From: an uncultured Gemmatimonadaceae bacterium
GTDB lineage: Bacteria > Gemmatimonadota > Gemmatimonadetes > Gemmatimonadales > Gemmatimonadaceae
NCBI GenBank assembly: GCA_963716745.1
Contig: OY970320.1
Coordinates: 2,240,001-2,304,000, forward strand
Reading direction: 5' to 3'
DNA: 64,000 bases
Shown: positions 161 through 28,214 of the stretch, piece after piece
Layout: each line of letters starts with the position of its first letter
Position numbering within the stretch: the stretch's first letter is position 1
Translations under genes and position numbers: made by a program
The notes under the pieces: generated by a model
The model's input: only the letters and a program-made list of their open reading frames with translations
What the model was told of the DNA's origin: nothing
Database searches by the model: none

Positions 161-394
161 TCGTGGCCGATCCGAGATCACGGTTCATGTTTAACGGGAT
201 GCGGCGGAAACAGCACGGATTGATTCCGTGCGTGATGGCAGATCGCCGCGCGCGGTCGGGCTTCTGTAGTTGTTGTTAACAACAAAAACCCGGCGCTATT
301 GAGAAGGGGTGATCCATTCCGCCGCATGGAGTCGATCCGTGCTGTTTCCGCCGTATCCCGTTAAACATGAACCGTGATCTCGGATCGGCCACGA
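161..394. repeat. Family A long palindrome, copy 1 (234 bp)
   Basis: 72-bp arms at 161-232 and 323-394 containing ATCACGGTTCATGTTTAACGGGAT; central TTGTTGTTAACAACAA at 270-285. Confidence 0.95.
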
Positions 395-479
395 TGATGC
401 TGAGGCTCCATGGGACCAAATGAAAAAGCGGCGGGCGAAGATCTCGCCCGCCGCTTTGAATTCGAATCCGGTCCAACCA

Positions 480-2468
480 CTACATCGTCGTCGTCTTCCC
501 CAGCATCTTCACGACGCCCGCGAGCATACCCACCTTCGCCGCGTCGCTCGAACCCTTCTCGTCCGCATCCAGCGACGCGGCGAGCTTGTTCAGTTCGTCC
601 GACCGCGCTGTGCCCGACGCCTTCTCGGCGCGCTCGAGCGCCTCACGCGCGTCCTTGATCTTGCCGCTCGACAAACCCTCCGACCGCTCCAGCTGGTCGA
701 GATAGGCCTGCGCGAGCACGAACGTCGCCGGCCACACCAGCTTCGGCTGGCCCTGCGTGTTCAGATAGTCGAGGTGCACTGTCTTCGCGGCCGCGATCTC
801 GTTCGCCGTGAGGTACGGGCTCGGCGTGAGTTCGAAGATGTCGAGGCCGCGCGCGATCTCGGAGCTGATCATGTAACCGTTGTACCAGTACACCGACCAG
901 CTGCCGCCCATCGCCATGCGAGCGGAGTCCACCGGTCCGCGGTCGAAGAACGCGATCTCTTTCGCGTGCGCCGCATCGGTCCAGTCGAACACCGACACGC
1001 CGCCCTGGTACCACGCCTGCACCATCACGTCGCGGCCGGGGATCGGGATCAGGCCGCCGTTGTGCGCCACGCAATTCTCCTGCGGCGTCTGCGCCGCCGG
1101 CATCTTGTAGTAGCCCTGGAACACGAGCTTGTTGTCGACGATCGTGAAGAGCGCGTCGGCGCCCCAGTCCTTCGGGTCCGTGGCACGGCACTTCGGCTGG
1201 CCGCCGCCGCCCCACTCATCGGAGAAGAGCAGTTTCGTGCCGTCGTTGTTGAACGTCGCCGAGTGCCAGTACGAGAAGTTCGAATCGCTCGCCGCGGCCA
1301 AGCGCATCGGATGCGTCGGGTCCGAGATGTTGAGCAACAGCCCGTAGCCTTCGCACGCGCCGCCGGCGAGTCCGATCGCCGGATAGACCGTAATGTCATG
1401 GCACTGCGTGGGACCCGGGCGCGGACCCGAGCCCGGCGTGGTGGGCGTGATGCCGAACATCTTGTTGATGATGCCGTCGAGCGCCGGACGCAGCGCCGCG
1501 CTGTCCGCGGCCGTCGGAGCGCCCGTGCCGCCGCGCGCCTTCACGATGCTGTCGAGCAGCGGATCGATCGTGCGCGGCGACAGGATGCGGGGCATTCCCT
1601 GGTAGACCCAGATGAACGCGCCCTTCGCGCTCGCCGAGTCCGCGGCCTTCTTCGCCGCGGCCATGTCGGTCGCGGTCTCGCCGTGCCGGGCCGGCGCGAC
1701 GAGGTCGTTGAAGATGCGCGGCGAGTTCACGATCGCGGCCTGCTCCGGATGCGCGAGCGGCACCTTGATCACTTCGATGCGGAACAGCGCCGAGTTCGGA
1801 TCGGCTGACGGCGCGGCCTTGGAGCAGCCCGGCATCTCGTTCGGCGAACGCACGCCCGCCGAGCCCGAGATGTAGACGTACACGTTCTCGGGATCCTTGG
1901 GATCGTAGAGCACCGTGTGCGTGTGCGAGCCGCGGCACGTTTGCACGTTGCCGACGTTCACTGGGTGCTGGATGTCGCTGATGTTGAAGATGCGCAGTCC
2001 GCGCAGGCGCTCCGTGCTCACTGTGTCCTTCACGCCCTGGGCGCCGCAATCGAGCCGGCCGCTCAGGCCTTCACCCGACACGAACAGCAGGTTCTTGAAC
2101 ACCGACACGTCGCTCTGCGACGCGGGGCAGTAGAACGCGATCTTGAGCGCCGGCTTGCTCGCGTCGGACACGTCCCACACCTGGTAGCCGGCGTAGCTCC
2201 CCTGGATCACATAGGGGCCGGTGAAGGCGAGATCGGAATTCGTCTGGCCCACGAACTTCTCCGAGGGCGGTGTGTTGGACACGAGCTTCATGTTCCACGA
2301 CGCTTCGCCGGCGTTGTTGAGGCCGGCCTTGAGTCCGACGCGCGGGTCGGGGCTCGGCGCGACGACGTTCAGCCCCTTCGACGACGGATGCGTGCACGCG
2401 GCCACGGACAGCAGGCCGGCGGCGAGCGCGAGGGGGAATGAGCGGCGGATCTGATGCAGCAATGCCAT
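480..2468 (-). CDS. Secreted or lipoprotein LVIVD-repeat (beta-propeller) protein
   Basis: 662 aa; signal peptide with lipobox-like VAAC; NSDLAF, GYQVWDVSD, SHTHT, QCHDITV, WHSATF motifs; adjacent to DUF305 gene. Confidence 0.8.
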   Translation of the reverse strand: MALLHQIRRSFPLALAAGLLSVAACTHPSSKGLNVVAPSPDPRVGLKAGLNNAGEASWNMKLVSNTPPSEKFVGQTNSDLAFTGPYVIQGSYAGYQVWDVSDASKPALKIAFYCPASQSDVSVFKNLLFVSGEGLSGRLDCGAQGVKDTVSTERLRGLRIFNISDIQHPVNVGNVQTCRGSHTHTVLYDPKDPENVYVYISGSAGVRSPNEMPGCSKAAPSADPNSALFRIEVIKVPLAHPEQAAIVNSPRIFNDLVAPARHGETATDMAAAKKAADSASAKGAFIWVYQGMPRILSPRTIDPLLDSIVKARGGTGAPTAADSAALRPALDGIINKMFGITPTTPGSGPRPGPTQCHDITVYPAIGLAGGACEGYGLLLNISDPTHPMRLAAASDSNFSYWHSATFNNDGTKLLFSDEWGGGGQPKCRATDPKDWGADALFTIVDNKLVFQGYYKMPAAQTPQENCVAHNGGLIPIPGRDVMVQAWYQGGVSVFDWTDAAHAKEIAFFDRGPVDSARMAMGGSWSVYWYNGYMISSEIARGLDIFELTPSPYLTANEIAAAKTVHLDYLNTQGQPKLVWPATFVLAQAYLDQLERSEGLSSGKIKDAREALERAEKASGTARSDELNKLAASLDADEKGSSDAAKVGMLAGVVKMLGKTTTM

Positions 2469-2493
2469 TGTCGGTTCCTCGAGAGAAGCCTGC

Positions 2494-3180
2494 TCAGGGT
2501 GAGCTGGACGCGGGGGGGAGAGCGGCGAGCATCTTGTTCATGCGCGCGATCTCCGTGGTCTGATCGACCTGCACATCGTTCGCGAACTTGAACACCAGCT
2601 CGTCTTCGCCGGCGCCGGTGGTGCCGAAGAGCTGGTTGACCATCTGCACGGCGCCGGTGTGGTGCTGGATCATGAAGGTCAGGAAGAGACGGTCGAACTC
2701 GGTGCCGCGCGCGGCGTCGAGCGCCTTCATTTGCTCGGGGGTGAGCATGCCGGGCATGAGCATCATCTGCTCCTTGCCGCCCATCTCCATCTTCATGCCG
2801 TTCGCGTCGGCGGCCGGCACGGGGAGCTGGCGGTCCACCAGCCACTGCTGCATGGTGACGATCTCATCGTTCTGCGCATTGATGATGCGCGCCGCGAGCG
2901 TCTGGATCGACGAACTGGCGCCGTGCGTCGGCGCCCACTTGGCCATGACGATGGCCTGCGCGTGATGGCCGATCATCCCCTGCATGAAATAGACATCGGC
3001 CTCGACATACGGATGCCGCACACTGTCGGCCTTGGCCTTCGCGATGTGGGCCGCGTCGGGCGTCACGACGCCAGGCTGCGTGTTGCCGGGCGCGACACCC
3101 TGCGCCGCCACCTCCATGGAACAGACCGCGAGCGCCGCGAGCGCGGCGCGAATGGTGACCGAATTGAAGCTTCGCATCAT
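2494..3180 (-). CDS. DUF305 domain protein (ferritin-like, secreted)
   Basis: Duplicated FMQGMIGHHAQAIVMA and FLTFMIQHHTGAVQMV helices; MPGMLT. Confidence 0.9.
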   Translation of the reverse strand: MMRSFNSVTIRAALAALAVCSMEVAAQGVAPGNTQPGVVTPDAAHIAKAKADSVRHPYVEADVYFMQGMIGHHAQAIVMAKWAPTHGASSSIQTLAARIINAQNDEIVTMQQWLVDRQLPVPAADANGMKMEMGGKEQMMLMPGMLTPEQMKALDAARGTEFDRLFLTFMIQHHTGAVQMVNQLFGTTGAGEDELVFKFANDVQVDQTTEIARMNKMLAALPPASSSP

Positions 3181-3362
3181 CGGGATTCTCCGGCTGGGGC
3201 GCGGGAAGCGCGCCCCCCACTATTAAGACAACCCTTCGAGCCTTAGAGATTGCCACACCGTTCCCGCCCACGCAACCCGCATGGGCGCGACGGGATGAAT
3301 ACGCTCGGCGGGGCTGGTTCGTTGGGGGCGGCGGCCTGGGCGCCCGTCAGGCTCCGCGCCCC

Positions 3363-3582
3363 AGGCTGATATCACGGTTCATGTTCAAGGGGATGCGGCG
3401 GAAAGAAGCACGGATCGACTCCATGAGGCGGAATGGATCGGTTCTCTTCGTCGGCGCTGTGTTGTTGTTGTTAACAACAACAACCGAAACCTGACACAGC
3501 GCGGCGACCTTTCATCATGCACGGAGTCGATCCGTGCTGTCTTCCGCCGCATCCCCTTAAACATGAACCGTGATCTCAGCCT
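3363..3582. repeat. Family A long palindrome, copy 2 (220 bp), inverted relative to copy 1
   Basis: Arms 3363-3425 and 3520-3582; centre (GTT)4(AAC)4 at 3461-3484; inner spacers resemble the reverse complement of copy 1. Confidence 0.95.
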
Positions 3583-3698
3583 TGTCGCGCGGAGGCCGGC
3601 GGGCGCTCGGAGCTCAGAGAATCATCGTCGCCACGATCTGAGTGGCGGACCGGGCACATTATCCGTATCCATTCAGCGGCACTCCACGGAGGCACGAC

Positions 3699-4148
3699 AT
3701 GCGGGCGTACATCATGGCGGTGGCGGCACTCGGCATCGCGTCGCTCAATCCGCAGAAGGATCCGCCGATCTCTCTGCATCAGGATGTGCAGTTCACGGTG
3801 GGCACGAAGCAGGTGTACGACGTGCTCCTCAGCAGCAAGGATTTCGCCGCCTTCTCAGGCCGCAATGCGACGATCGATCCGCACGTCGGCGGCGCGTTCC
3901 TGTTGTTCGACGGGCACATCTCGGGCGTCAACGTCGAACTCGTGCCCAACGAGCGGATCGTCCAGGCGTGGCGCTCGGCCGATTGGCCGGCCGGCGTCTA
4001 CTCGATCGCGCGCTTCCAGTTGAACGCGCAGGGCGCTGGCACACAGCTCGTGTTCGACCACATCGGGTTCCCGGCGGGACAGAAGGACCACCTCGCCGCC
4101 GGCTGGGAAGCGAATTATTGGTCGCTCATGAAGAAGTACCTCAAATAG
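3699..4148 (+). CDS. SRPBCC/AHSA1 (START-like) domain protein
   Basis: GGAGG RBS before ATG 3699; IDPHVGGAF, ELVPNERIVQAWR, GWEANYW. Confidence 0.85.
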   Translation: MRAYIMAVAALGIASLNPQKDPPISLHQDVQFTVGTKQVYDVLLSSKDFAAFSGRNATIDPHVGGAFLLFDGHISGVNVELVPNERIVQAWRSADWPAGVYSIARFQLNAQGAGTQLVFDHIGFPAGQKDHLAAGWEANYWSLMKKYLK

Positions 4149-4161
4149 GAGACTCGATCTC

Positions 4162-4959
4162 GTGATGCTTCGCATCCCCGTGCGAGTCGTGGCCACGTGC
4201 GCCGCGCTCGCGATCGCCGCTGCCGCGGCGCGCGCCCAGACCGCGCCGGCCTCCGGCCTCGCCCTCTTCGACCAGATGTACCAGGCCTATAAGGGGAAGT
4301 GGTACACGACACTCACCTTCGTGCAGAAGACCACGAACAAGCGCGCCGACGGCACCGACTCCGTCGCCACGTGGTACGAGAGCATTCGCTATTCGCAGCC
4401 GCGCGGCTCCCAGTTGCGCATCGACTTCGGATCGCCCACACTCGGCAACGGCGTGCTCTATACCGCCGATTCGCTCTGGGTGATGAAGGCTGGGCAGCTC
4501 TCGCTCACGCGCGGACACGGCAACGCCCTGCTGCCGCTCATCGATGGAGTGTATATGCAGCCCGCGTCGCGCACCGCCGCCGAGCTGGCGGGCACCGGCG
4601 TGGACCTGTCGCGCAAACCCGTGCTGGGCCGGTGGGACGGGAAGCCCACGTGGATCATCGGCGTCACCTCGCTCGCCGACACGACGTCGCCCAGCTTCTG
4701 GGTGGACTCCGCCACGCTGAACGTGGTGCGAGCGGTGTTCACGATCGCACCGGGCCGGATGATCGACGCGCGGTTCGAGAACCTGGTGCGCGTGGGCGGC
4801 GGCTGGCTCGCGGTGCGCTGCGAGTTCTTCGAGCACGGCTCGCTCGCCACCACCGAGGAATATTCCGACTGGAAGGGGAACGTGGACCTTCCAGCCTCGT
4901 TGTTCGATCTCGCGCAGTGGACAACCGGTCCGCACTGGGCGGCGGCGCGCGCACCCTGA
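4162..4959 (+). CDS. Secreted hypothetical protein, possibly LolA-like fold
   Basis: 265 aa ORF with Ala-rich signal peptide; KWYTTLTFVQKT, LRIDFG. Confidence 0.7.
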   Translation: MMLRIPVRVVATCAALAIAAAAARAQTAPASGLALFDQMYQAYKGKWYTTLTFVQKTTNKRADGTDSVATWYESIRYSQPRGSQLRIDFGSPTLGNGVLYTADSLWVMKAGQLSLTRGHGNALLPLIDGVYMQPASRTAAELAGTGVDLSRKPVLGRWDGKPTWIIGVTSLADTTSPSFWVDSATLNVVRAVFTIAPGRMIDARFENLVRVGGGWLAVRCEFFEHGSLATTEEYSDWKGNVDLPASLFDLAQWTTGPHWAAARAP

Positions 4960-4993
4960 TCGGCCCAGCTATGTCCTGAACGAAGGCTCTTCC

Positions 4994-6275
4994 ATGCCAC
5001 ACCCATCGCTGAATCCGCCGGGCCTGAACGCGATCCACCGTGCCGCATGCGCGACCCTGCGCGTCGAGCTCGCGCATGTGTTGAAACAGATCCAACAGAC
5101 GACCGACGTGCGGACTCTGCAGAACCTTCTGAAGCAGGCCGCCGTGCTCGAGATCGCGATCCAGAATTGCCCCGAACCATCTCCTCCAAAGACGTCGCCT
5201 CCGGATCTCAGCGATTGGCTCGCCCACAATCCGAAGGTCACGGGCTCGATCCTCTGGCAGAAGCAGGCGGCGAGTCCCGGGAATGCCTACGTTCCGCCGG
5301 CGGCGGGCGATAAGGTCGCGTGGGTGGACTGGACTCCGACGCAGAAAGCGCAACTCGAAGCAGGTCTACCTCGACTGCTGCATCTGGCTGGACGCGGGGG
5401 CGCCCTCCGTTCTGCTCGATCCCGCCGGCTTGACCGATGCGCCTCAGAACGTGGATCCCGGGACCTCAAACGATCTTGGGAGCGTGATCGAGAAAGTGAG
5501 CGCGACGTATATGTGGGAGATCTATCTCGCGCACGTCGGCTTCGCGTTGGCGGCCGAGCTCACGAACCTCTTCCCGTGGAAGATCGCTGCGTACAACGCG
5601 CTCGAGTTGCGCTACGTGTTCGACAGTACGACAATGGCGTGGCTCATGCCCTCCGGCGAATTCTGGATGGGCACATACGACGTGTATGTTCCGGCACTCC
5701 GGGCCGACAATCGTCCGCAAACGGCCTTCGCGCCCCCCGAATGGAGTTATCGCTTTCTCAAGCAGAACAACCTCATCGGGGCATCGAAGATCGAGACGAT
5801 CGGCCTCGTGTTGGAATGGGCGCGCCAGCATTTGGTCCATTTCTACGGGGCTGAGAATTTCGGAACGTGCGACAATGTGTGGCACTATCGCGGCTTCCCT
5901 CCCATCTCGCGCGTGACCGGTGGCACGATCGACTCCGCGAATCCTGGCCTGGGGCCGGCATGCTACACGATGGGATGCCACGGCACGGTCGGATTCCTGA
6001 ACGCGATCCTTCGGGCGGTGAACATCCCGGTGCAGCCGATCTGGGTCGCCGGCCACGAGCTGGCGTGCTTTCTCACTGAAGGGAAGTATCTCGATCATGG
6101 GGACGATCCGTACAACAGCATCGTGAGAGCGTCCTCGCAGCCGATCCTGCAAGTACTCATCGATGAAGCCACTTACCAGGCGCGATTCACGACCGACCTG
6201 ACGGCGAACATCGTTGACCTGAACAGCCCGGCGCTCGCGTATGTGGGTTACAGCGCCGTCAATTTTCCGCCGTGA
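4994..6275 (+). CDS. Hypothetical protein with transglutaminase-like Cys-His-Asp motif; frameshift near 5358
   Basis: ORF 4994 (to ...QKAQLE) continues in the ORF 5283 frame (QVYLDC...); GCHGTVGFLNAILRAVNIPV...GH...YLDHGD. Confidence 0.6.
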
Positions 6276-6296
6276 ACGCGACCCAGAGCGTGTGAC

Positions 6297-6731: not shown

Positions 6732-6732
6732 C

Positions 6733-8234: not shown

Positions 8235-8256
8235 CGTGTGCTCCTGGGGTTGGAGG

Positions 8257-9117: not shown

Positions 9118-9161
9118 CGAGGTAACGTAGCGCCGGTCGCCGGCGGCCGCCATCTTACAGC

Positions 9162-10136: not shown

Positions 10137-10271
10137 GCGACGCTCCATGGGAGTGGTCTGACCCAATCGTGCCGCCGCAAGGGTTGAGGTGTCAACCCGC
10201 GCGCCGCACCACGTTGACGGGCTGTCCCGGCGCATCTATGTTCGCCGAGTCGGGAACTATGGAGGGTCGCG

Positions 10272-14782: not shown

Positions 14783-14870
14783 AACTACAGACTGAGACGT
14801 TAGACTTAGACTTAGAATGCGCGAGCAGTGAGTAGTCTAACGTCTTAGTCTAACGTCTCAGTCTGCAGGT
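14783..14870. repeat. Family B palindrome (AGACTT/AGACGTT units), copy 1
   Basis: AACTACAGACTGAGACGTTAGACTTAGAC...GTCTTAGTCTAACGTCTCAGTCTGCAGGT. Confidence 0.9.
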
Positions 14871-14880
14871 ACGACTCAGA

Positions 14881-15264: not shown

Positions 15265-16850
15265 GCCCGCGGCGCACGCGCAGCATCGTCGTGGGCGGAG
15301 CGCCGCGCTGGCGCACGGGACCCATCCTGTCGCCGGCGGCGATCGAATTCGTCACCGAGCTGGTGCGCACGCACCGCCCAACGCTGGCCAAGCTCCTCAC
15401 GCGCCGCGCCGAGCGAGCGAGAGAGATGGATGCGCGCGCGGCCGCCGGGCAGCCGATCCTCGATTTCCTCGAGAGCACGCGCACGGTGCGCGAGAGTGAA
15501 TGGACATGTGCGCCGATCCCCGCCGACCTGCGCGACCGCCGCGTGGAGATCACGGGTCCCGTGGATCGCAAGATGGTGATCAACGCGCTCAACTCCGGCG
15601 CGCGCGTGTTCATGGCGGACTTCGAGGATTCCACGACGCCCACGTGGGCGAATCTCATCGCCGGCCAGCAGAACCTGTACGACGCCGTGCGCCGCACGAT
15701 CACGTTCGAAGCTGGCGGCAAGCAGTACGCGCTCAGTGCGAAGACCGCCGTGCTCATGGTGCGCCCGCGCGGACTGCATTTACCGGAAGCGCACTTCATG
15801 GTGGACGGCGAGCCTGCGCCGGGCGCGCTCTTCGATTTTGGATTGTACTTCTTCCATAATGCCAAGGCGCTCCTCGAACGCGCTACGGCGCCGTACTTCT
15901 ATCTCCCCAAGCTCGAGAGCCATCTCGAAGCGCGGCTCTGGAACGACGTATTCATCCAGGCGCAGCGCGCACTCGGCGTGCCACTCGGAACGATCCGCGC
16001 GACGGTGCTCATCGAGACGCTGCCCGCCGCGTTCGAGATGGACGAGATCCTGCACGAGCTGCGCCAGCACGCCGCCGGCCTGAACTGCGGTCGCTGGGAT
16101 TACATCTTCTCGTTCATCAAGAAGCATCGCGCGAGCAGCGCCGCGATCCTACCCGACCGCGCGCAGATCACGATGGACAAGGGATTCTTGCGCGCGTACT
16201 CGCAGCTCCTCATCCGCACCTGCCACCACCGTGGCGTGCACGCGATGGGCGGCATGGCGGCGCAGATCCCGATCAAGAACGATCCCGCGCGCAACGAGGC
16301 GGCGCTCGACCGCGTGCGTGCGGACAAGAAACGCGAAGCCGGCGACGGCCACGACGGCACATGGGTCGCACACCCGGGGCTCGTGCCTGTAGCGATGGAG
16401 ATCTTCGACGCCGCGATGCCCGGCCCGAACCAGATCGGGAAACTGCGTGAGGACGTGAAGTCGTCCGTCTCCGATCTCCTCAGTGTGCCCGCGGGCACGC
16501 GCACCGAGGCGGGCCTTCGGCACGATGTGCGCGTCGGCATCCAGTACATCGAGGCCTGGCTGCGCGGCGTCGGCTGCGTGCCGCTCTACGATCTCATGGA
16601 AGACGCCGCGACCGCCGAGATCAGCCGCGCGCTGGTGTGGCAGTGGCTGAAGCACGGGGTCACGGTGGGAGACGCCCCACTCACCGCCACGCGCTTCAAT
16701 GCGATCGTCGAAGAGGAGACGCGCGACTTCGCCGGCGGGAAATTCGCCGAGGCGCGGGAGATGTTCGTGTCGCTGTCCTTGGCGCCAGAGTTCGCAGATT
16801 TCTTGACGATCCCGGCATACGAGCGGATCGTGTCGGAAGAGCAGACTTAG
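15261..16850 (+). CDS. aceB: Malate synthase A
   Basis: [61 protein letters not shown]. Confidence 0.97.
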
Positions 16851-16925
16851 ACGTTAGACTGAGACGTTAGACTACGCACTACCCACGCCTTCTAACGTCT
16901 AAGTCTAGAGTCTAAGTCTGCAGTT
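16841..16925. repeat. Family B palindrome, copy 2, inverted relative to copy 1; overlaps the aceB stop codon
   Basis: GCAGACTTAGACGTTAGACTGAGACGTTAGACTAC...TCTAACGTCTAAGTCT...AAGTCTGCAGTT; loop resembles the reverse complement of the copy 1 loop. Confidence 0.9.
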
Positions 16926-16955
16926 ACGACGCTGGGCCAGTCGAGGTTGCCTGCA

Positions 16956-17884: not shown

Positions 17885-17919
17885 GCAGACTTAGACGTTA
17901 GATCTAGACGTTAGACTAC
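17885..17919. repeat. Family B half element (one arm) just upstream of the pirin gene
   Basis: GCAGACTTAGACGTTAGATCTAGACGTTAGACTAC. Confidence 0.85.
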
Positions 17920-17971
17920 AACGGCCCGCCATGGGGCTTATCTGCAAGATAGAAATCGTGTCAATGGGCCC

Positions 17972-18802: not shown

Positions 18803-18872
18803 CAGACGGGATTCGGGTGAGGGTGATGAAGAAGCTTATCGAATCACACGTGCCGCGTTAAGTAGCTACGGC

Positions 18873-18960
18873 AACTGCTTCATGACAGGATTGACATGAT
18901 GATCATGATTGAACGGCGTGGTTCAATCATGTTCATCATGTTAATCCTGTCAAAGCAGTT
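18873..18960. repeat. Family C palindrome (AACTGC...GACAGGATT...AATCCTGTC...GCAGTT), copy 1
   Basis: 88-bp imperfect hairpin abutting the stop codon at 18961. Confidence 0.9.
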
Positions 18961-19902
18961 CTACTTGATAGGCTCCGCGGTGAGCGCCAGTGGCACACGT
19001 CTCAGGCCGTGCCACGCATATACGGCGCCATCCGCTCCAACAATGCGCAGCTGCGCCGATACCCCGCCGTCGAGCGCGACCGCTCTACGGCAGCCGAGCG
19101 CGCCCATGAGCGCGGCGGTCTCCGGGATCGTGAGGCCGAAGGGGATGCCTCCAAGCGATGTGCCCAGCGCATCGAATCGCGTGAGCGCCACGACGATCGT
19201 GCCGTCGGCCAGCTGGCCGATCGCCAGGCGCGCATCGCGATGTTCGAGATCGATGAGCCCGGTGGTCTCGCGCAATAGTCGCGGCACTTCGCCGCCACTC
19301 TCGAGGAGCGTGGGATACGACTGGAATGCTTCGCGCACGCCCGCGGGGTGATCGGCGGTGCCGCGCAGCCGGCGCATCGCGACGCTCGCATCGTTCTCGA
19401 ACGTGACGTTCCCCGCGGAGTCAATGATCACCGCGCTCGCGAGCGGGCCCGCACCGGGCGCACGGTACTCGACGCCGTCGTGGACGACCCATCCCCATAC
19501 CGCGCCGCCCGCGAATTGGCCGGCGTTGAACGCGACGACAGCCTCCGGTGGCGCCGCATCGATCGTCCACGTTCCCACGCCGCCATCCGGCGCGGCGCCA
19601 TTCGCCAATCCCAGCGCCACGCGACGCGGATCGATGTGCGCGACCACCACGCGCGTGCGCCACGCTTCGCCGCTGCCGGCGAGTTCCAGTTCCGCCCACC
19701 GCACGCCCGATGCCCCTTCCTTCCACTCGAGCGCTGCGCTCACGGCCGGATCGGCCGCCGTCCACCGCGCCGGCGCATCCTGCGCGCGCCACCACGTGAC
19801 CCACACTCCTTTCGTGTCGCGCACGCCCAGCGCCGCGCCGCTCGGCGGCGCGCCGAGCGACGGCAGCAGCGCCGCCAGGATCAGGAAGCGCCGGCCGATC
19901 AT
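18961..19902 (-). CDS. Phosphodiester glycosidase (NAGPA) family protein
   Basis: AFNAGQF, QSYPTL, ARLAIG, AVALDGGVSAQL. Confidence 0.85.
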   Translation of the reverse strand: MIGRRFLILAALLPSLGAPPSGAALGVRDTKGVWVTWWRAQDAPARWTAADPAVSAALEWKEGASGVRWAELELAGSGEAWRTRVVVAHIDPRRVALGLANGAAPDGGVGTWTIDAAPPEAVVAFNAGQFAGGAVWGWVVHDGVEYRAPGAGPLASAVIIDSAGNVTFENDASVAMRRLRGTADHPAGVREAFQSYPTLLESGGEVPRLLRETTGLIDLEHRDARLAIGQLADGTIVVALTRFDALGTSLGGIPFGLTIPETAALMGALGCRRAVALDGGVSAQLRIVGADGAVYAWHGLRRVPLALTAEPIK

Positions 19903-19909
19903 GCGGTGC

Positions 19910-20870: not shown

Positions 20871-20918
20871 CGGTCGGCTCCTGATTGGATGGCGTGTTTC
20901 GAGCTAACGAACTGATAC

Positions 20919-21004
20919 AACTGCTTTGACAGGATTAACATGATGAATGTGATTGAACTGCGCCGTTCAATCATTCTCATCATGTAAATCCTGTCAAAGC
21001 AGTT
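20919..21004. repeat. Family C palindrome, copy 2, inverted relative to copy 1
   Basis: AACTGCTTTGACAGGATTAACATGATG...CATCATGTAAATCCTGTCAAAGCAGTT, close to the reverse complement of 18873-18960. Confidence 0.9.
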
Positions 21005-21094
21005 GTTAAGATATGGCGATACCGCGAGACCGGAGCCGTGACCATGGCCGTCTCCCGTTCCGCGTCGTCCGTTCGCGGACTAAACTACCTCTTA

Positions 21095-22669
21095 ATGACG
21101 AAGAAGAAAGAACCGCCCGCCGGCGACACGGACGCCGAACTCCTCGCGCGCTTGCGCAGCACCACGGAGCTGCTCGAGCAGATCATCGCCGATCGGGGCG
21201 TGCTCGTGGGCATTCCGGCCGAGGAACGGAGACGCCTGCTGCACGCGGTGGGGCAGGTCTACCATCCCGACGCGAATGCGCGCCGGCAGATGGTGCGCGC
21301 CACGACGCGCCGGCGCAAAGCCGAGCGCATCAAGAAGGAGGACAAGTCGCTCCACGCGACCGGCATCCGCACGCTGCGGCGCCAGACGGTGTTCACCACG
21401 CCCAACGTCTTCCCGCCCGAGGGATTCACACAGCAGGACATGGACGCCGAGCCCGAATTCCGCGAGGCGCTCGATCCGCAGCATTGCTACGTCTGCAAGA
21501 AGAAGTTCACGAAACTGCACCACTTCTACGATCAGCTCTGCCCCACGTGCGCGGAGTTCAATTTCGAGAAGCGCACGGAGCTCGCCGACCTGCGCGGCCG
21601 CGTGGCGCTGCTCACCGGCGGACGCGTGAAGATCGGCTACCAGGCCGGACTCAAGCTGCTGCGCTGCGGCGCGCGGCTGATCGTCACGACGCGCTTTCCG
21701 CGCGACTCGGCGCAGCGCTATGCGAAGGAGCCGGATTTCGCGGAGTGGGGCGATCGCCTCGAGATCTTCGGTCTCGACCTGCGGCACACGCCGAGCGTGG
21801 AAGCGTTCTGTCACGAGATGCTCACGACGCGCGACCGGCTGGATTTCATCGTGAACAACGCGTGCCAGACCGTGCGCCGTCCGCCGGATTTCTACGAGCA
21901 CATGATGGCGGGTGAGAAGGCGGCGCTGCGCGACATGTCGCGCGAGGTGCGCAAATTGCTCGGCGCGTACGAGGGGCTGCGCGGCTATCACATGCTGCCC
22001 GAGTCGGAGGGGACGGGTACCGCGGCGGTGCCGACGGATCGGAGGCTGACCGATGTCGCGGGCATTACGCACGCGGCGGAACTGTCGCAGCTCAAACTGT
22101 TGCCCGAGGAGCGCGAGGCGCAGAAGGCGCTCTTCCCCGAGGGGCGGCTCGACCAGGACCTGCAGCAGGTGGACCTGCGCGAGCGAAACTCCTGGCGCCT
22201 GCTCATGGCCGAAGTGCCGAGCGTGGAACTGCTCGAGGTGCATCTCGTGAACGCGGTGGCGCCGTTCATCTTCAATGCGCGCTTGAAACCGCTCATGACG
22301 CGCACGCCGGAGCGCGACAAACACATCGTGAACGTGTCGGCGGTGGAAGGGCAGTTCTACCGGAAGTTCAAGACCACGCGGCATCCGCACACGAACATGG
22401 CGAAGGCCGCGCTGAACATGATGACGCGCACGGCGGCCACGGATTACCAGCACGACGGCATCCACATGAACAGCGTGGACACGGGGTGGGTGACCGACGA
22501 GGACCCGGTGGAGATCGCGGCGCGGAAGGTGGCGGAGCATCGCTTCCATCCGCCGCTCGATATCGTGGACGGGGCGGCGCGCATCGTGGATCCGATCATC
22601 GCGGGCATCAAGACCGGAGATCATGTCTGGGGGCAGTTCCTGAAGGACTATCAGCCCACAGATTGGTAG
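21095..22669 (+). CDS. Atypical SDR oxidoreductase with N-terminal CxxC...CxxC
   Basis: CYVC...CPTC; ALLTGGRVKIG; VNNA; VNVSAVEG; HTNMAKAAL. Confidence 0.9.
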   Translation: MTKKKEPPAGDTDAELLARLRSTTELLEQIIADRGVLVGIPAEERRRLLHAVGQVYHPDANARRQMVRATTRRRKAERIKKEDKSLHATGIRTLRRQTVFTTPNVFPPEGFTQQDMDAEPEFREALDPQHCYVCKKKFTKLHHFYDQLCPTCAEFNFEKRTELADLRGRVALLTGGRVKIGYQAGLKLLRCGARLIVTTRFPRDSAQRYAKEPDFAEWGDRLEIFGLDLRHTPSVEAFCHEMLTTRDRLDFIVNNACQTVRRPPDFYEHMMAGEKAALRDMSREVRKLLGAYEGLRGYHMLPESEGTGTAAVPTDRRLTDVAGITHAAELSQLKLLPEEREAQKALFPEGRLDQDLQQVDLRERNSWRLLMAEVPSVELLEVHLVNAVAPFIFNARLKPLMTRTPERDKHIVNVSAVEGQFYRKFKTTRHPHTNMAKAALNMMTRTAATDYQHDGIHMNSVDTGWVTDEDPVEIAARKVAEHRFHPPLDIVDGAARIVDPIIAGIKTGDHVWGQFLKDYQPTDW

Positions 22670-22724
22670 GGCGCGGGACTTGGGGCTCGGGACTCGCCGC
22701 GGGACGCGCAACTACGGGAGGTCC

Positions 22725-23837
22725 ATGCGCTATCGAAGGATGCCGATCGAGGTCGAGTCTCCCGAGGAGATGGGGTACGCCTCCATCCGCTGCAATCTGG
22801 CGGAGAGTTCAATGCGGGACCGGGTGCTCGGGGATCTTGGGCTCGACGTGGACCTCGGGAAGACGATCCTCCTTTATGGCGATCATCGGGGGCATCCGGA
22901 GCTGCGGGCGTTGCTCGCTGGCGAGAGTGGGTGCTCGGCGTCCCAGGTGCTCCTCACGCCGGGCGCAGCGGGAGCGCTGTTCATCGTTTCCACGAGCCTG
23001 CTCTCGGCGGGCGATCATCTCGTGGTGCTGCGGCCCAACTACGCGACCAATATCGAGACGCCGCGCGCGATCGGATGCGACATCTCGTTCGTCGAACTGT
23101 CGCTCGACAAGGGATTCCGCTACACCGCCAGCGACATCGCGGCGGCGATGACGCCGCGTACGAAGCTCGTGAGCATCACGAATCCGCATAACCCCACCGG
23201 CACGGTGCTCGATCAGGCGGAGCTGGCGCGGATCGTCGAAACGGTATCGGCGCGCGGCGCGTATCTGCTCGTGGACGAGACCTACCGGGACCTCACCGTT
23301 TCGACGCCGCGGCCCTTCGCGACCACGTTGAGCGATCGCGTGATCAGCGTCGCGTCGCTCTCCAAGGCGTACGGCATGCCGGGGCTCCGCATCGGCTGGC
23401 TCATGACGCGCGATACCGAGCTCAACGAGACATTCTTGGCGGCCAAGGAACAGATGCTCATTTGCGGCGCCGTGCTCGATGAGGAGATCGGCTATCGCGT
23501 GTACAAGCGCCGCACGCAGGAGCTGCCCAAGATCGCCGCTTCAGTACAGCGCGGCGTCGCGTCGCTCACGGCGTTCATGGCGCGCGAGCCGGCTATGGAG
23601 TGGGTCGCGCCGGCGGGCGGCGTCGTGGCGTTCCCGGCCATCCGGAAGGACGCCGGCGTGAACGTGCCCAAGTTCTACGAGACGCTGAACGGGGCGCACG
23701 CGACATTCGTGGGGCCCGGCCACTGGTTCGAGCAGCACGACCGGTTCATGCGCGTCGGATTCGGCTGGCCCTCGGCGGGAGAGTTCGAGGAAGGACTGCA
23801 GAACATCAGCGCGTCCATCGCCACGGCGCGCATGTGA
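22725..23837 (+). CDS. PLP-dependent aminotransferase class I/II
   Basis: GGAGG RBS; TNPHNPTG, VDETY, SLSKAYGMPGLRIGW. Confidence 0.93.
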   Translation: MRYRRMPIEVESPEEMGYASIRCNLAESSMRDRVLGDLGLDVDLGKTILLYGDHRGHPELRALLAGESGCSASQVLLTPGAAGALFIVSTSLLSAGDHLVVLRPNYATNIETPRAIGCDISFVELSLDKGFRYTASDIAAAMTPRTKLVSITNPHNPTGTVLDQAELARIVETVSARGAYLLVDETYRDLTVSTPRPFATTLSDRVISVASLSKAYGMPGLRIGWLMTRDTELNETFLAAKEQMLICGAVLDEEIGYRVYKRRTQELPKIAASVQRGVASLTAFMAREPAMEWVAPAGGVVAFPAIRKDAGVNVPKFYETLNGAHATFVGPGHWFEQHDRFMRVGFGWPSAGEFEEGLQNISASIATARM

Positions 23838-24595
23838 GGCGAGTGCTCGCGGCTGGCGCACTCTTGGCGGCGGTCGCGTCCGCTACCGCGCAGACCGACG
23901 AGATCCAGGTCTACGACGGCGCCATCGCCAAGCCCGGCGAGCTCACGATCACGCTCCACACCAACTTCGTAGCGAGCGGCGATACGACGCCCGGATTCCC
24001 GGGAGCGGTGACCGCGAACCACTCGCTGAATGGCGTTCCCGAGTTCGGCTATGGCGTTGCCGATTGGTTCGAGGCAGGATTGTATCTGCCACTCTGGAGT
24101 CTCGATGCGCATGAGGGATTCGGGCTTAATGGCTTCAAGCTGCGCGCGCTGTTCGTGTCGCCGAACGCCGACGATCGAAAGTTCGCGTACGGCGTGAATT
24201 TCGAATTCAGCGTGAACGCGCCGCGCTGGGACCCCAAGGAGTTCACCTCGGAGATCAGAATGATCCTCGCATGGCATCTCAAGCCGGTGGACATCATCGT
24301 GAATCCGATCTTCGACACCGACTATTCCACTTTCGAGAATCTCGATTTCGCCCCCTGCGCGCGCATCGACTACAACGTGGGCACCGTGTGGTCGTTCGCG
24401 CTCGAGGAATACTCGGACTATGGCCCGGTGCACGACATCCAACCGTGGAACGATCAGTCGCACCAGCTTTTCGCGGTGGTGGACCACTACGGCAAGACAT
24501 GGGATGCCGAGTTCGGAGTGGGCGTGGGACTCACGAGCGCATCCGACCGGCTCACGCTCAAGATGATCCTGGCCCGTTCCCTGAACGGAAAGTGA
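23834..24595 (+). CDS. Secreted or outer-membrane beta-barrel-like hypothetical protein
   Basis: GTGA overlap start; signal peptide; DEIQVYD; amphipathic beta strands. Confidence 0.75.
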   Translation: MRRVLAAGALLAAVASATAQTDEIQVYDGAIAKPGELTITLHTNFVASGDTTPGFPGAVTANHSLNGVPEFGYGVADWFEAGLYLPLWSLDAHEGFGLNGFKLRALFVSPNADDRKFAYGVNFEFSVNAPRWDPKEFTSEIRMILAWHLKPVDIIVNPIFDTDYSTFENLDFAPCARIDYNVGTVWSFALEEYSDYGPVHDIQPWNDQSHQLFAVVDHYGKTWDAEFGVGVGLTSASDRLTLKMILARSLNGK

Positions 24596-25140
24596 GCGCC
24601 CGCACTCGCTGGTGTCTCGCGTTCGCCGCGCTGCTCGCCGCGACCGCGCCGGTGCCCGCGCAGGATGTCCTGTCATTCACCGTCCCCGCGGCGCCCTGGT
24701 ATCTCACGCTGCCCAAGGGCAGGATCACCGTGCAGGAGCAGAAGGTCGATACCAGCGGACGTTCCGGATATTTCACCATGACCGATGGCGCGGGTGACAT
24801 CACGATCACGTTCAACATCCAACCGGCGGTCATGTGCCACGACAGCGCCGCATGCCGCGACAGTCTGCGGGCGCGTGGCAATCCCGAATGGACGAACGCC
24901 GAGCGCAAGTCGGACGGCAAGATCGGCGACATCTCCTACTTCGAGTTCTACATCGCGTCCTACGGCGGGATCCCGGTGAAGCAGGAGAACGTCTACGCTG
25001 AGTTCGTGCACGACGGATTCTGGGTGGATCTGCACATCTCCAAGGTGCAGTACACCAAGGAAGCTCACGTGCTATTCGAGAATATCGTGAAGTCCATCCG
25101 CTTCGTGTCGAAGGAGCAGAAGCCGGCGAAGGGACGGTGA
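24592..25140 (+). CDS. Secreted hypothetical protein
   Basis: GTGA overlap start; signal peptide ending VPA-QD. Confidence 0.7.
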   Translation: MSARTRWCLAFAALLAATAPVPAQDVLSFTVPAAPWYLTLPKGRITVQEQKVDTSGRSGYFTMTDGAGDITITFNIQPAVMCHDSAACRDSLRARGNPEWTNAERKSDGKIGDISYFEFYIASYGGIPVKQENVYAEFVHDGFWVDLHISKVQYTKEAHVLFENIVKSIRFVSKEQKPAKGR

Positions 25141-25141
25141 C

Positions 25142-25831
25142 GTGAGAGTCCTGCTCTTCGGCGCCACCGGCATGGCGGGACGCGCCGTGTTCGAGGCGTG
25201 CATCGCGTCGCCGGTGGTCACGCAGCTGCGCGCCGTGACCCGAAGACCGCTCACCGACCCCTCGCGGAAATTCGTCAGCGTGGTGCACACGGACCTGGGC
25301 GACCCGGCGGCGATCGAGTTGGCGTTCGTGGACGTGGACGTCTGCCTCTTCTGCGTTGGGATCTCGGTGAGCCAGGTGTCCGGCGAGGACGAGTACCGGC
25401 GGATCACCTATGACTTCCCGCTCATCTCAGCGGACGCGCTGCGCAAGTGCAGCCCGGCGGCGCAATTCCAATACCTGAGCGGCGACGGCGCCGGCCTCGA
25501 GAGCCGCTTCATGTGGGCGCGCGTGAAGGCGGAGGCCGAGCGCGATCTCATCGAGGTGTTTCAGGCCGTGTGCTGGCGCCCCATGGCGATCGGCGCGAAG
25601 CCCTCGGGCAACACGCCGTTCGCGTTCAAGCTCGTGCGGCCGTTCTTCCCGCTGCTCAAGTATTCGCGGCGACTCTTCGTGAGCGGCGAGGACCTCGGCC
25701 GCGCGATGCTGCAAGCGCAGATCGCGGGAGTGCGCAGCCGTGTGCTGCACTCGGCGGAGATTCGGGATTTCGCGGATCGATATAGTGCATCGCACATCGG
25801 GCATCGTGCATTGGGGCCTCGAGCCGTCTAG
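25142..25831 (+). CDS. NAD(P)-binding Rossmann-fold (epimerase-like) protein
   Basis: VLLFGATGMAG; FMWARVKAEAE. Confidence 0.85.
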   Translation: MRVLLFGATGMAGRAVFEACIASPVVTQLRAVTRRPLTDPSRKFVSVVHTDLGDPAAIELAFVDVDVCLFCVGISVSQVSGEDEYRRITYDFPLISADALRKCSPAAQFQYLSGDGAGLESRFMWARVKAEAERDLIEVFQAVCWRPMAIGAKPSGNTPFAFKLVRPFFPLLKYSRRLFVSGEDLGRAMLQAQIAGVRSRVLHSAEIRDFADRYSASHIGHRALGPRAV

Positions 25832-25841
25832 GAGGAGATTC

Positions 25842-26492
25842 ATGTTCGTCGGGCATTACGGTGCAAGCTTCGCGGGGAAGAAGGTGGATACGACGGTGCC
25901 GCTCTGGGTGCTCTTCCTCGCGGTGCAGTGGCTCGATGTCATGTGGAGCGTGCTGGTGTTCGCCGGTGTCGAGAAGGTGCGCATCGCGCCCGGCTTCACA
26001 GGCACGAATCCGCTCGACCTCTACTACATGCCGTACACGCACGGGCTGATCACCGCACTCCTCTGGTCATTCGGCGCGATGTTGGTGTACCGCTCATTCT
26101 GGCATGGCGCGACCGCGCGCGCGGGTTGGGTCGTCGCGGCGGCCGTCCTCTCGCATTGGGTACTCGACTTCATCGTCCACACACCCGACCTGCCACTATA
26201 CGGGAACAGCGCGAAGGTCGGACTCGGGCTGTGGAATATGCCCGCTCTGTCACTCGGTCTCGAGATCGTAGTCTTCTTCGGCGGACTCTGGTTGTACTTC
26301 AGCACGGGCGTGAGGCGCCGCGCGCAGTTCGTGATCTTCGGTGTGGTGATGTTCGCCGTGCAGATCTTCAGTTCATTCGGCCCGCCGCCGCCGACGGATA
26401 GGGCGATGGCGGCGGAAGCATTCTCGGCTTACATCATGTTCGCCGCGATCATCGCGTGGTTGGAGAAGCGAGAGATCGCCGCGAGAGCCTAG
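25842..26492 (+). CDS. Membrane-bound metal-dependent hydrolase-like protein
   Basis: AGGAG RBS; MFVGH, PYTHG, SHWVLDFIVH, GLGLW. Confidence 0.8.
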   Translation: MFVGHYGASFAGKKVDTTVPLWVLFLAVQWLDVMWSVLVFAGVEKVRIAPGFTGTNPLDLYYMPYTHGLITALLWSFGAMLVYRSFWHGATARAGWVVAAAVLSHWVLDFIVHTPDLPLYGNSAKVGLGLWNMPALSLGLEIVVFFGGLWLYFSTGVRRRAQFVIFGVVMFAVQIFSSFGPPPPTDRAMAAEAFSAYIMFAAIIAWLEKREIAARA

Positions 26493-27887
26493 AACGGATT
26501 ATCCGGCAGCACGATGAATCGCGGCCGGTCCACCACCACGCCGTCGAGATGCAGCAGCGAGAGTCCCGACGCCCGCGGCGCCCTGCATCATTCCCGTCTG
26601 CGCGACCACATCCGCGGGCGAGATGCGGTTCTCGGCCTGGACCCACTTCATGCCGTCGCCATCCAGCGTCGCGCGCGCGAGTGTATCGTTCGCCACAGTC
26701 ACAGCGAATACGAGATGCCGGCGCTCCTTGGTGATCCCGTGCAGCGACACGAAGAACTCGCACACGCCTGAATTGCCGCAGCACTGCGAGATGTTGTTCC
26801 AGTAGCCCGAGAGATCGGGATGTTTCTCGGGCACGCCGCTGTCGATGATCCCCTGCGCGAGCTTCGGCACATAGCTGGTGTACTTCGAGTCGCCGGTCGC
26901 GACACCAAGCTGATGATAGAGTCGCGCGGTGCCCGCCGGCCCATGGCACCAGCTGAGATAGAAGAGATCCTCGCCGCCGGGCTCGTGATGGAAGACCTTC
27001 TTGCCTGTGGGTCCCGTGGGCGTCGCGATCGCGTCGAGATACGTCGCGCCCGCGATCGCCGCGTCGAGGAATGCGCGGTCCTTCGTCGCGAGGTACAGCG
27101 TCGCGAGAAAGTATGACACGCCCCCCGTGCCGTGCGAGAAGTTCGGATACAGTTTCGGCACTTCCGGCGCGAGCATCCACTTGAGCCCACCCTTCTCGGG
27201 GATCCCCACCTCGACGAGATGCCGCCCCGCGCCGATCGCCGCGTCGCGCGCCTTGGCGTCGCCGAGCGCTTTCTCCGCCCAGAGCATCGTGAGACCGATG
27301 CCCGCACTCCCGGCGATGATGTCGTTCACGCTGTTCCAGGCCATGCCGTTCCCCGCGGGCTTCGCGGCGGCATGCAGCAGCGACATCGCGCGCTGCGCCC
27401 CAGCGTAGTAGACATCGCGCCCGCTCGCGGCGTGGGTGCGCTCGAGCACGTATGCGAATCCGGCGGCGCCGGTGTACAGTCCCGCACCCTCGTCGCCGAG
27501 CTGCGACGCGTCGGCGGGAAGCGTCGCGATGAGATAGTCCGCGCCACTCGTGGCGCGCTCGAGCATCGCCGGATCCTTGGTGGCGGCGTACATCTCCAGA
27601 TAGAACAGCACGACGCCCGGCATGCCGTTGTACAAGTCCGTGCTGATGCTGTCGGGTTTGAGCGGATCCGCCGGCCACGCGGTGCCGCGCGCGTCACGCA
27701 CCGCGCTGCGCCTGATCCAGCGCTCGGCCTGGAACGACGCGTTGTACCACGGCCGGCTGGGCGCGAAGAAGTCGAGGAAGAACCGGCGCCATCCGGCCGG
27801 CGCGGTGATCATCGCCGCGAACGCCGCCCCGCGCTCGAGCAACGCGCGCCGCGTGAACCCCTCGTGTGAGCCGGTGTCGTACGCCAT
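26489..27887 (-). CDS. Lanthionine synthetase C-like (LanC-like) protein with Tat-like leader; frameshift near 26566
   Basis: TRRALL leader; repeated LYxGxxG; FSHG, WCHG, QCCG; removing one base gives C-terminus GLSLLHLDG...LPDNPF*. Confidence 0.9.
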
Positions 27888-27892
27888 TCGCT

Positions 27893-27922
27893 ATCCTATG
27901 GAAAGTCTCATGCGCATGTCAA
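27893..27922 (-). promoter_or_regulatory. Putative sigma70 promoter of the LanC-like gene, possibly leaderless
   Basis: Minus strand TTGACA-N18-TAGGAT, 5 nt before the ATG, no RBS seen. Confidence 0.5.
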
Positions 27923-27960
27923 TGTGGGACTACTACAGTTCCGAGAGCTCTCAAAGCTCC

Positions 27961-28214
27961 GCGCGCGGGAACACAGCTATCACGGTTCATGTTTAACGGG
28001 ATACGGCGGAGGAAGCGCGGATGCGCTGGATCGTTCCTTGGGTGCGAGGGGGCCGCTCTACCGAATCATGTTTGTGTCTTTGTTGTTAACAACAATAGCA
28101 ACGGCATGTTTGTGTCGCGGAGATCGGTTCCGCGCACGGGGCGATCCAGCGCATCCGCGCTTCCTCCGCCGCATCCCGTTAAACATGAACCGTGATCCAC
28201 GTGTTCCCGCGCGC
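27961..28214. repeat. Family A long palindrome, copy 3 (254 bp)
   Basis: Arms 27961-28033 and 28142-28214; centre TTGTTGTTAACAACAA at 28080-28095. Confidence 0.95.

What the first reader, a model, noticed from the sequence alone, without database searches (positions are those of the whole stretch)
161..28214. Family A: 220-254 bp elements with exact two-fold symmetry about GTT|AAC
Seen: three intergenic copies (161-394, 3363-3582, 27961-28214). Each has 63-73 bp inverted arms with the conserved core ATCACGGTTCATGTT(T/C)AA(C/G)GGGAT(G/A)CGGCGGA. Each also has two largely non-complementary spacers of identical length (37/37, 35/35, 46/46) and an AT-rich central palindrome TTGTTGTTAACAACAA. The end-to-end midpoints (277.5, 3472.5, 28087.5) fall exactly on the central GTT|AAC. 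Arm sequences differ between copies but stay complementary within each copy, including copy-specific outer extensions. Inference: geometry is conserved more than sequence. Candidates are a long structured RNA or ssDNA (stem, symmetric bubble, terminal hairpin), a non-autonomous mobile element, or a symmetric protein-binding or recombination site. I do not recognise it as a named element.
Basis: partly seen in the sequence, partly recalled or inferred. Interest (0 to 1): 0.82.

Follow-up and report, generated by a model that had tools for sequence, protein, structure and literature searches.

The report
Flipping gene-less nuclease-cassette palindromes
These mirror-image repeats in a soil bacterium look like gene-less copies of a small cassette that elsewhere wraps an uncharacterised nuclease gene (GxxExxY); their middles flip in place and they trade sites with unrelated repeats in related genomes, which suggests an undescribed kind of repeat-plus-enzyme system.

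Summary
The three elements are real and belong to about 21 copies in this probable Gemmatimonadaceae genome. Exact symmetry is not a rule: 29 of 85 copies in five same-genus genomes are exact, 70 within 2 nt. It arises mainly because each half has a fixed design: a 9-nt CGGAT array, a variable spacer, then a T-rich tail and AACNRC about 60 nt from the innermost repeat. The centre reads as two such inner ends back to back. The same arms enclose a broken GxxExxY (PD-(D/E)XK) gene elsewhere in this genome, and full doublets sit just upstream of intact, purifying-selected GxxExxY genes in relatives. Across orthologous sites the inner segment is inverted in 7 of 38 comparisons, arms change in concert, there are no target duplications, and sites lacking the element mostly hold another palindrome family. 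No Rfam match, no RAYT found. It works like a REPIN but fails REPIN and MITE tests. That the nuclease cuts the centre is inferred, not shown; passive template switching could explain the flips. This scan noted GxxExxY-linked palindromes before on other DNA, including this genome.

The parts
161..232 (+). Copy 1 left arm: copy-specific outer extension, subfamily head (177-191) and array of three GGA words at ~9-11 nt period (196, 205, 216)
233..269 (.). Copy 1 left spacer, 37 nt, poorly complementary to the right spacer, ending T-rich
270..285 (.). Copy 1 central palindrome; read as two back-to-back inner ends (T-rich tail + AACNRC on each strand); axis between 277 and 278; proposed cut site (inferred)
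286..322 (.). Copy 1 right spacer, 37 nt
323..394 (-). Copy 1 right arm, inverted partner of 161-232 (94% complementary)
3363..3425 (+). Copy 2 left arm (head at 3371)
3426..3519 (.). Copy 2 inner segment: two 35-nt spacers and the 24-nt central palindrome 3461-3484; axis 3472.5; between divergent DUF305 and AHSA1-like genes
3520..3582 (-). Copy 2 right arm (90% complementary)
27961..28033 (+). Copy 3 left arm (head at 27979; complementarity extends outward to 27959)
28034..28141 (.). Copy 3 inner segment: two 46-nt spacers and central palindrome 28080-28095; axis 28087.5; between divergent LanC-like and S9 peptidase genes
28142..28214 (-). Copy 3 right arm
18883..18963 (.). Sister nonamer family (ACAGGAT/ACATGAT words); arms of this type enclose the intact GxxExxY gene at G000:C1:1094820-1095158; not Family A
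20916..21006 (.). Second copy of the ACAGGAT sister family; not Family A
14812..14875 (.). Unrelated heptamer-type palindrome whose site holds a Family A doublet in relative G005 (L109): example of site swapping

Best explanation
Family A elements are gene-less (non-autonomous) doublets of a GxxExxY nuclease cassette, acting as DNA. Each half is a module: subfamily head, three to four CGGA(T/A) words at 9-nt period, ~50 nt of length-constrained but sequence-free spacer, then a T-rich tail and AACNRC. In gene-bearing cassettes two modules point inward at a GxxExxY gene; in Family A the gene is absent and the two inner ends overlap as the central palindrome. SHOWN: anatomy, link to GxxExxY genes, conserved PD-(D/E)XK catalytic residues under purifying selection, in-place inversion of the inner segment, concerted arm change, no target duplication, reuse of the same intergenic sites by unrelated palindrome families. 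INFERRED: the GxxExxY protein binds the nonamer arrays and nicks or cuts at the AACNRC ends (at the centre of a doublet), and repair through the inverted arms or from a paralogue flips, homogenises and replaces elements in place; elements therefore spread mostly by overwriting occupied sites rather than by classical transposition. Confidence 0.8 for cassette membership, about 0.35 for cutting at the centre; 0.6 for the account as a whole.
For: G000:C1:3223380-3224012 is a broken GxxExxY gene between two inward Family A-headed arms, inverted relative to G004's copy at the same site. Six GxxExxY loci at two sites in four same-genus genomes have a full doublet ending ~100 nt upstream; L047's is the window's own arm subfamily. 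Nonamer arrays lie within 300 nt of 32 of 51 GxxExxY loci, vs 1 of 31 windows 1 kb away and 7.4% of 1000 random G000 genes (pattern chosen after seeing arms). Seven cassettes have arm + T-rich + GG|AACNRC pointing at the gene; 21 of 23 G000 halves end AACNRC, 0 hits in the reversed genome. GGA words peak at 61, 70, 79, 88 nt from the centre. D71, E81, K83, Q95, Y99 invariant in 30 of 30 sequences; PF13366 E 4e-33; best Foldseek match Cas4 SSO0001, E 6e-5, TM 0.55; dN/dS 0.07-0.25 in 5 pairs. Of 38 orthologue comparisons 14 same orientation, 7 flipped (5 sites), 17 unassignable; flipped copies are more diverged inside than unflipped (0.80 vs 0.90 at flank identity 0.95-0.96, p 0.01). 20 arm columns changed on both arms to keep pairing vs ~1.3 expected (27 pairs). 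7 of 8 G000 sites without any Family A sequence hold an inverted repeat vs 393 of 1719 intergenic regions (p 2e-4). No flanking direct repeat in 79 of 85.
Against: No biochemical evidence. The three window copies have no GxxExxY gene nearby, and both G000 genes of the linked clade are broken (decay or assembly error, not resolved). The six adjacent loci are only two independent sites. Twelve genomes with close GxxExxY relatives have no exact centre pattern, and 0 of 9 metagenome loci with close relatives carry it, so the centre is lineage-specific; G543 has doublets but no GxxExxY found (completeness unknown). Intact centres sit next to intact genes (L047), awkward for a simple homing cut. Cassette inner ends lie 31-57 nt from the nearest GGA word, not a fixed 61. 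19 of 51 GxxExxY loci had no array by the rule used. Inversion and arm homogenisation are what polymerase template switching does unaided (PMC8604942). VIA-align best Z is only 8.0, tied between Cas4 and a restriction enzyme domain, so the substrate is not indicated. Orthologue comparisons are not independent and G002 appears to hold two versions of some sites.
Confidence: 0.6

Rival explanations
1. Passive relics: the doublets descend from GxxExxY cassettes, but the protein no longer acts on them. Replication template switching and ordinary recombination between inverted arms produce the flips and concerted changes, selection against long perfect palindromes keeps the spacers mismatched, and site reuse reflects the few intergenic regions that tolerate insertions.
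For: Template switching gives arm homogenisation and spacer inversion (PMC8604942, part 1 read). No half reaches 70% complementarity to its partner spacer (0 of 172). 46 of 66 relative copies sit at a site already occupied in G000. G000's linked genes are broken.
Against: It does not explain the conserved central palindrome at 60.4 +/- 1.4 nt from the array across arm subfamilies and in other genera, nor the replacement of whole arm subfamilies at one site, nor the purifying selection on relatives' genes.
Confidence: 0.22
2. RNA-level element: when transcribed, the 60-70 bp stem is an RNase III processing or mRNA-stability signal, as described for Correia and ERIC elements, and is kept for that reason.
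For: Very stable RNA fold (z -21); compensatory arm changes; 13 of 21 copies lie between co-oriented genes; RNase III cleavage of Correia transcripts is described in PMC10969869 (passage).
Against: G-T and A-C mismatches are equal in arms (38 vs 39) and near equal in spacers (133 vs 112; 29 exact elements); orientation matches background (p 0.73), with 4 of 21 between divergent genes; the inner segment can flip without loss; no Rfam match.
Confidence: 0.1
3. Conventional MITE or REPIN moved in trans by a transposase elsewhere in the genome, with the GxxExxY link being only shared insertion hot spots.
For: Size, intergenic location, 20-30 copies and long inverted arms fit; palindromes of several families cluster at the same sites; one empty site was seen (G000 223044 vs L036).
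Against: No target duplication in 79 of 85; single arms are not self-palindromic (mean z -0.8, 19 arms); no Y1 transposase found; arms enclose the GxxExxY gene itself. Other transposase families were not searched.
Confidence: 0.08

Closest known systems
REPINs with their RAYT transposases (Bertels and Rainey; PMC3337134 parts 1-2 of 3 read, PMC3116915 passages)
   Same: Two inverted conserved ends around a spacer of constrained length and unique sequence; intergenic; several sequence groups per genome; tied to a small single-copy DNA-processing gene under purifying selection; head-to-head and tandem arrangements.
   Different: Arms are tandem 9-nt arrays, not short self-palindromic REPs; conserved central palindrome; partner is a PD-(D/E)XK protein, not an HUH/Y1 enzyme; the partner gene can sit inside the arms; 220-254 bp.
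Prokaryotic MITEs (ERIC, Correia, RUP; PMC10969869 passages)
   Same: Small, non-coding, intergenic, inverted termini, tens of copies, strong hairpin.
   Different: No target-site duplication, no fixed terminus (outer extensions are copy-specific), no transposase with matching ends identified, mainly in-place turnover.
GTAG- and CGTC-tagged REP dimers (PMC3733652 passages)
   Same: Dimers with spacers that differ in sequence but keep length; ends near stop codons.
   Different: No such tag as a fixed terminus (18 of 85 left outer arms contain either word anywhere); units far longer; the paper's text has no occurrence of 'Gemmatimon'.
GxxExxY protein, TIGR04256 / PDDEXK_3, PF13366 (function 'Unknown' in the table of PMC3424549, one passage seen)
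   Same: The linked gene is a member.
   Different: No paper found describing its flanking repeats or gene-less doublets.
Homing endonuclease systems (recalled, not tested against a call)
   Same: Symmetric empty allele vs gene-filled allele with homologous flanks; spread by break and repair is proposed.
   Different: No intron or intein; dispersed multi-copy sites; cutting not shown; intact centres lie beside intact genes.

Membership tests
REPIN/RAYT | Two conserved units in inverted orientation around a length-constrained spacer, forming a hairpin | tested here: met
REPIN/RAYT | Each unit is itself a short imperfect palindrome (REP) | tested here: not met
   single-arm fold mean z -0.8 over 19 G000 left arms
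REPIN/RAYT | Linked RAYT (HUH/Y1) gene flanked by the repeats | tested here: not met
   no PF01797 match in G000 (90% complete, so absence is not proven); the gene between the arms is GxxExxY
REPIN/RAYT | Excision of doublets in population reads | not testable with these tools
   only assembled contigs were available
MITE (ERIC/Correia type) | Terminal inverted repeats, no coding capacity, intergenic multi-copy | tested here: met
MITE (ERIC/Correia type) | Target-site duplication | tested here: not met
   none at the outermost paired base in 79 of 85; true ends are uncertain because of outer extensions
MITE (ERIC/Correia type) | Autonomous transposase with the same ends | tested here: inconclusive
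   only Y1 transposases searched; DDE families not searched
Rfam structured RNA | Match to a covariance model | tested here: not met
   0 at gathering in the window; 0 at E <= 1 for 100-450
Structured RNA (new) | Strand-specific G-U tolerance and transcription | tested here: inconclusive
   no G-T over A-C excess; transcription untested
GxxExxY cassette repeat (undescribed; this scan's label) | Same arms enclose or adjoin a GxxExxY gene | tested here: met
   G000:C1:3223380-3224012, L047, L042, L046, L041, L048; 32 of 51 vs 1 of 31
PD-(D/E)XK nuclease (linked protein) | Catalytic D, E, K and core fold | tested here: met
Homing endonuclease system | Enzyme cuts the gene-less allele and the gene is copied into the break | not testable with these tools
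   needs biochemistry; one intact centre beside an intact gene (L047) argues against the simplest form

The most novel reading that the evidence does not exclude
A transposase-free mobile system in which a minimal PD-(D/E)XK nuclease binds 9-nt repeat arrays, measures about 60 bp and cuts at the AACNRC ends; break repair through the inverted arms flips the inner segment, drops or regains the gene, and lets palindrome families overwrite one another at fixed intergenic sites. It would give the widespread GxxExxY family its first function and a new route by which bacterial intergenic repeats propagate.
Probability: 0.3. Interest if true: 0.88.

Novelty: new variant of a known kind. Interest (0 to 1): 0.68.

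Why it matters
GxxExxY/PDDEXK_3 is a widespread nuclease family of unknown function, and how long intergenic palindromes arise and persist is an open question outside the RAYT-bearing Proteobacteria. Family A supplies a defined candidate substrate with a predicted cut point, a measurable spacing rule, natural filled, empty, half and flipped alleles, and an intact cognate enzyme (L047) 137 aa long, so the link is directly testable in vitro. The inversion and site-swapping pattern also shows how such repeats turn over between close relatives.

Tried and rejected
Fold-back artefact: rejected. Rfam family: none. RAYT: no match in G000. Terminator role: no excess between convergent genes (4 of 21 vs 231 of 1751). 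Strand-skew halo as reported for another repeat in this genome: GC skew within 0.04 of zero beyond 150 nt for 21 copies, not seen (gene orientation not controlled, crude gene caller). My first reading, that both spacers are rewritten wholesale, was partly wrong: 7 of those cases are inversions; 17 of 38 remain unassignable. Copying of spacers from paralogues: best paralogue identity at most 0.81 within a genome, no recent donor seen. Genome-collection scan: 8 non-Gemmatimonad hits lack arms, chance; 21 further Gemmatimonadaceae loci of that scan were not re-examined for arms. Viral scan with a loose half-element pattern: 120 loci, none with a GxxExxY match, uninformative. Sequence search of solved structures: 0 hits. 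No RNA holder listed among 21 runs. Promoter scan: 1 weak site, near chance. No tRNA in the window. Literature searches without a description of the system: 3 papers hold 'GxxExxY', listing only; 0; 0; most subscription papers are outside the library and no supplements were read. Tyrosine recombinases and DDE transposases were not searched; no complex prediction was run.
Full report
Observation. Copy 1 folds at z = -17 (DNA) and -21 (RNA). Contigs from two other public runs cross the copy-1 centre with two differences each and G002 has an 88% identical copy at the same site, so this is not a fold-back artefact. The window is G000:C1:2240001-2304000. Loci carrying the same element are titled Gemmatimonadaceae or Gemmatimonadota in 24 of 32 pattern hits, so the genome is probably of that family (inference).

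Census and anatomy. A profile of the three copies finds about 20 full copies in G000 plus half copies and head-to-head pairs; 21 full copies were used. The central pattern occurs 8, 33, 0, 20 and 24 times in same-genus G001-G005, control 0-1. I examined 92 candidate centres (all of G000, 60 fetched regions of G002/G004/G005 covering the listed sites, 4 of 8 G001 sites); 85 had arms. The arm axis is exactly on the centre in 29 of 85, within 1 nt in 57, within 2 in 70 and within 3 in 78. GGA words peak 61, 70, 79 and 88 nt from the centre; the innermost lies 60.4 +/- 1.4 nt away (52 of 85 elements usable). Halves fall into at least four arm subfamilies, and both halves share a subfamily in 76 of 85. 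Left and right lengths match a little better than halves shuffled within subfamily (mean difference 0.96 vs 1.32, p 0.003), but orthologues inflate this. So symmetry comes mainly from a fixed half length. Spacers are weakly conserved, and none of 172 halves reaches 70% identity to its partner. In 251 genomes sampled from the order the strict pattern hit only G000 and G050; G050's copy has different nonamer arms and the same centre. G543, G545 and G544 also have arm-plus-centre copies (those of G544, L130, L202, L205, L208, L211, L212, L214, rest on an unpublished genome). Eight non-Gemmatimonad pattern hits lack arms.

The linked gene. No Y1/RAYT match was found in G000. GxxExxY (TIGR04256) genes are present. 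One type sits inside arms of the sister ACAGGAT family that also occurs in the window at 18883 and 20916. A second type has a complete Family A doublet ending about 100 nt upstream at six loci, which are two independent sites; L047's doublet is the window's own subfamily. At one of these sites G000 has a degraded GxxExxY between two inward Family A-headed arms (3223380-3224012), inverted relative to G004. Nonamer arrays lie within 300 nt of 32 of 51 GxxExxY loci, against 1 of 31 windows 1 kb away and 7.4% of 1000 random G000 genes (the pattern was chosen after seeing arms, the loci include orthologues and 3 from G544). The protein keeps D71, E81, K83, Q95 and Y99 in 30 of 30 sequences, matches PF13366, models at pLDDT 88.8 and resembles Cas4 SSO0001 and RecB-type nucleases (E 6e-5, TM 0.55; Z 8.0 tied with a restriction-enzyme domain). 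dN/dS is 0.07-0.25 in five pairs, with dS near saturation in four. Its function is listed as unknown in PMC3424549 (one table passage).

What the centre is. Seven gene-bearing loci (L163, L164, L166, L167, L169, L173, and L196 of unpublished G544) read arm, spacer, T-rich tail, GG, AACNRC pointing at the gene; 14 of 51 loci met the rule, the other seven being doublets. In G000, 21 of 23 halves found by a rule that fixed only AAC continue as AACNRC, including four half copies with GGG before AAC at the same spacing; the reversed genome gave 0 (one strand). The centre is therefore best read as two inner ends overlapping back to back, i.e. the cassette without its gene. Against a universal rule, cassette ends lie 31-57 nt from the nearest word, and twelve genomes with close GxxExxY relatives have no exact centre, nor do 9 metagenome loci.

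Behaviour between relatives. Of 66 relative copies mapped on G000 by their flanks, 46 fall on a site that holds Family A, 16 on a site that does not, 4 could not be placed. The 16 are 12 sites: 7 hold an unrelated palindrome family (assigned by eye), 4 hold Family A arms or halves, 1 is empty. Seven of the 8 sites without Family A sequence carry an inverted repeat, against 393 of 1719 intergenic regions (p 2e-4; 8 of 12 overall, p 0.0015). At shared sites the arm subfamily often differs, including at all three window sites (L066, L079, L102). Of 38 comparisons (8 of 46 dropped as tandem sites or near-identical duplicates), the inner 104 nt is in the same orientation in 14, inverted in 7 (5 sites) and unassignable in 17, using the 99th percentile of paralogue identity (0.72) as threshold; outer extensions stay with the flanks. 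Flipped copies are more diverged inside (0.80 vs 0.90; p 0.01). In 27 orthologue pairs, 20 of 1164 arm columns changed on both arms to keep pairing, about 1.3 expected. No target duplication in 79 of 85. These comparisons are not independent, and G002 seems to hold two versions of some sites.

RNA or DNA. No Rfam match. G-T and A-C mismatches are balanced. Flanking genes are 13 tandem, 4 divergent, 4 convergent, as background (p 0.73; home-made gene caller). This favours DNA-level action but does not exclude RNase III processing of transcribed copies, as described for Correia elements (PMC10969869, passages).

Mechanism. Shown: modular half, link to GxxExxY, intact catalytic motif in relatives, in-place inversion, concerted arms, site reuse, no duplication. 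Inferred: the protein binds the arrays and cuts at AACNRC ends, giving a symmetric break at a doublet's centre (GTT^AAC is the HpaI blunt site; recalled), and repair via arms or paralogues flips, homogenises or replaces the element. Template switching alone gives arm homogenisation and spacer inversion (PMC8604942, part 1 of 7 read) and is the main rival; it leaves the conserved centre and spacing unexplained. G000's two linked genes are broken, whether by decay or consensus error is unresolved.

Comparison and novelty. It works like a REPIN with its RAYT (PMC3337134 parts 1-2 read; PMC3116915 passages) but fails the REP-unit and RAYT tests, and fails the MITE duplication test; it is not a GTAG/CGTC REP (PMC3733652 passages). 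Nine library searches found no description of GxxExxY-linked repeats; subscription papers and supplements were not seen. Earlier AI notes of this scan reached the GxxExxY link on other DNA; I had formed it before reading them, and they are not independent support. What this element adds is the centre as fused inner ends, the spacing rule, inversion and site swapping. Verdict: real, apparently undescribed, a new variant of the repeat-plus-enzyme kind; interest 0.68.

Noticed in passing
window 14812-14875, 16832-16930, 17885-17919: Heptamer-type palindrome family; in G005 a Family A doublet occupies the first site and probably the second (L109).
   Followed up: partly
window 18883-18963, 20916-21006: ACAGGAT nonamer family; its arms enclose the intact GxxExxY gene at G000:C1:1094820-1095158 and orthologues L040, L045, L049.
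   Followed up: partly
G000 genome-wide: 202 long inverted-repeat pairs of many families and 7 four-helix-bundle (TIGR02436) matches; their link was not tested here.
   Followed up: no
G000:C1:2952573-2953214: Family A doublet and frameshifted GxxExxY after a gene ending in a Cys-rich motif; the arm subfamily at this site differs among four genomes and the inner part may be flipped in G004.
   Followed up: yes
G000:C1:964450-964800; 297825-298205; 907700-913400: Nested, tandem and half copies: a doublet bracketed by outward arms of another subfamily, and half copies ending in GGG-AAC.
   Followed up: partly
window 45382-54243 and 61795-63171: Three or four paralogous long genes in tandem (repeats D1-D16), some split into several ORFs, which may indicate frameshift errors in the assembly; family not checked.
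   Followed up: no
window 26499-27887 and 28313-30367: LanC-like gene and S9 peptidase gene divergent around copy 3.
   Followed up: no
L053, L054, L061 (G002): Three near-identical copies with shared flanks on different contigs; with L051/L056, L052/L066 and L063/L075 this suggests G002 is a mixed bin.
   Followed up: partly
L111 1460-2110 (G050): Three tandem arm-centre-arm units, the second and third near-identical.
   Followed up: no
window 39487-39510: Lone short heptamer array at the end of a gene.
   Followed up: no
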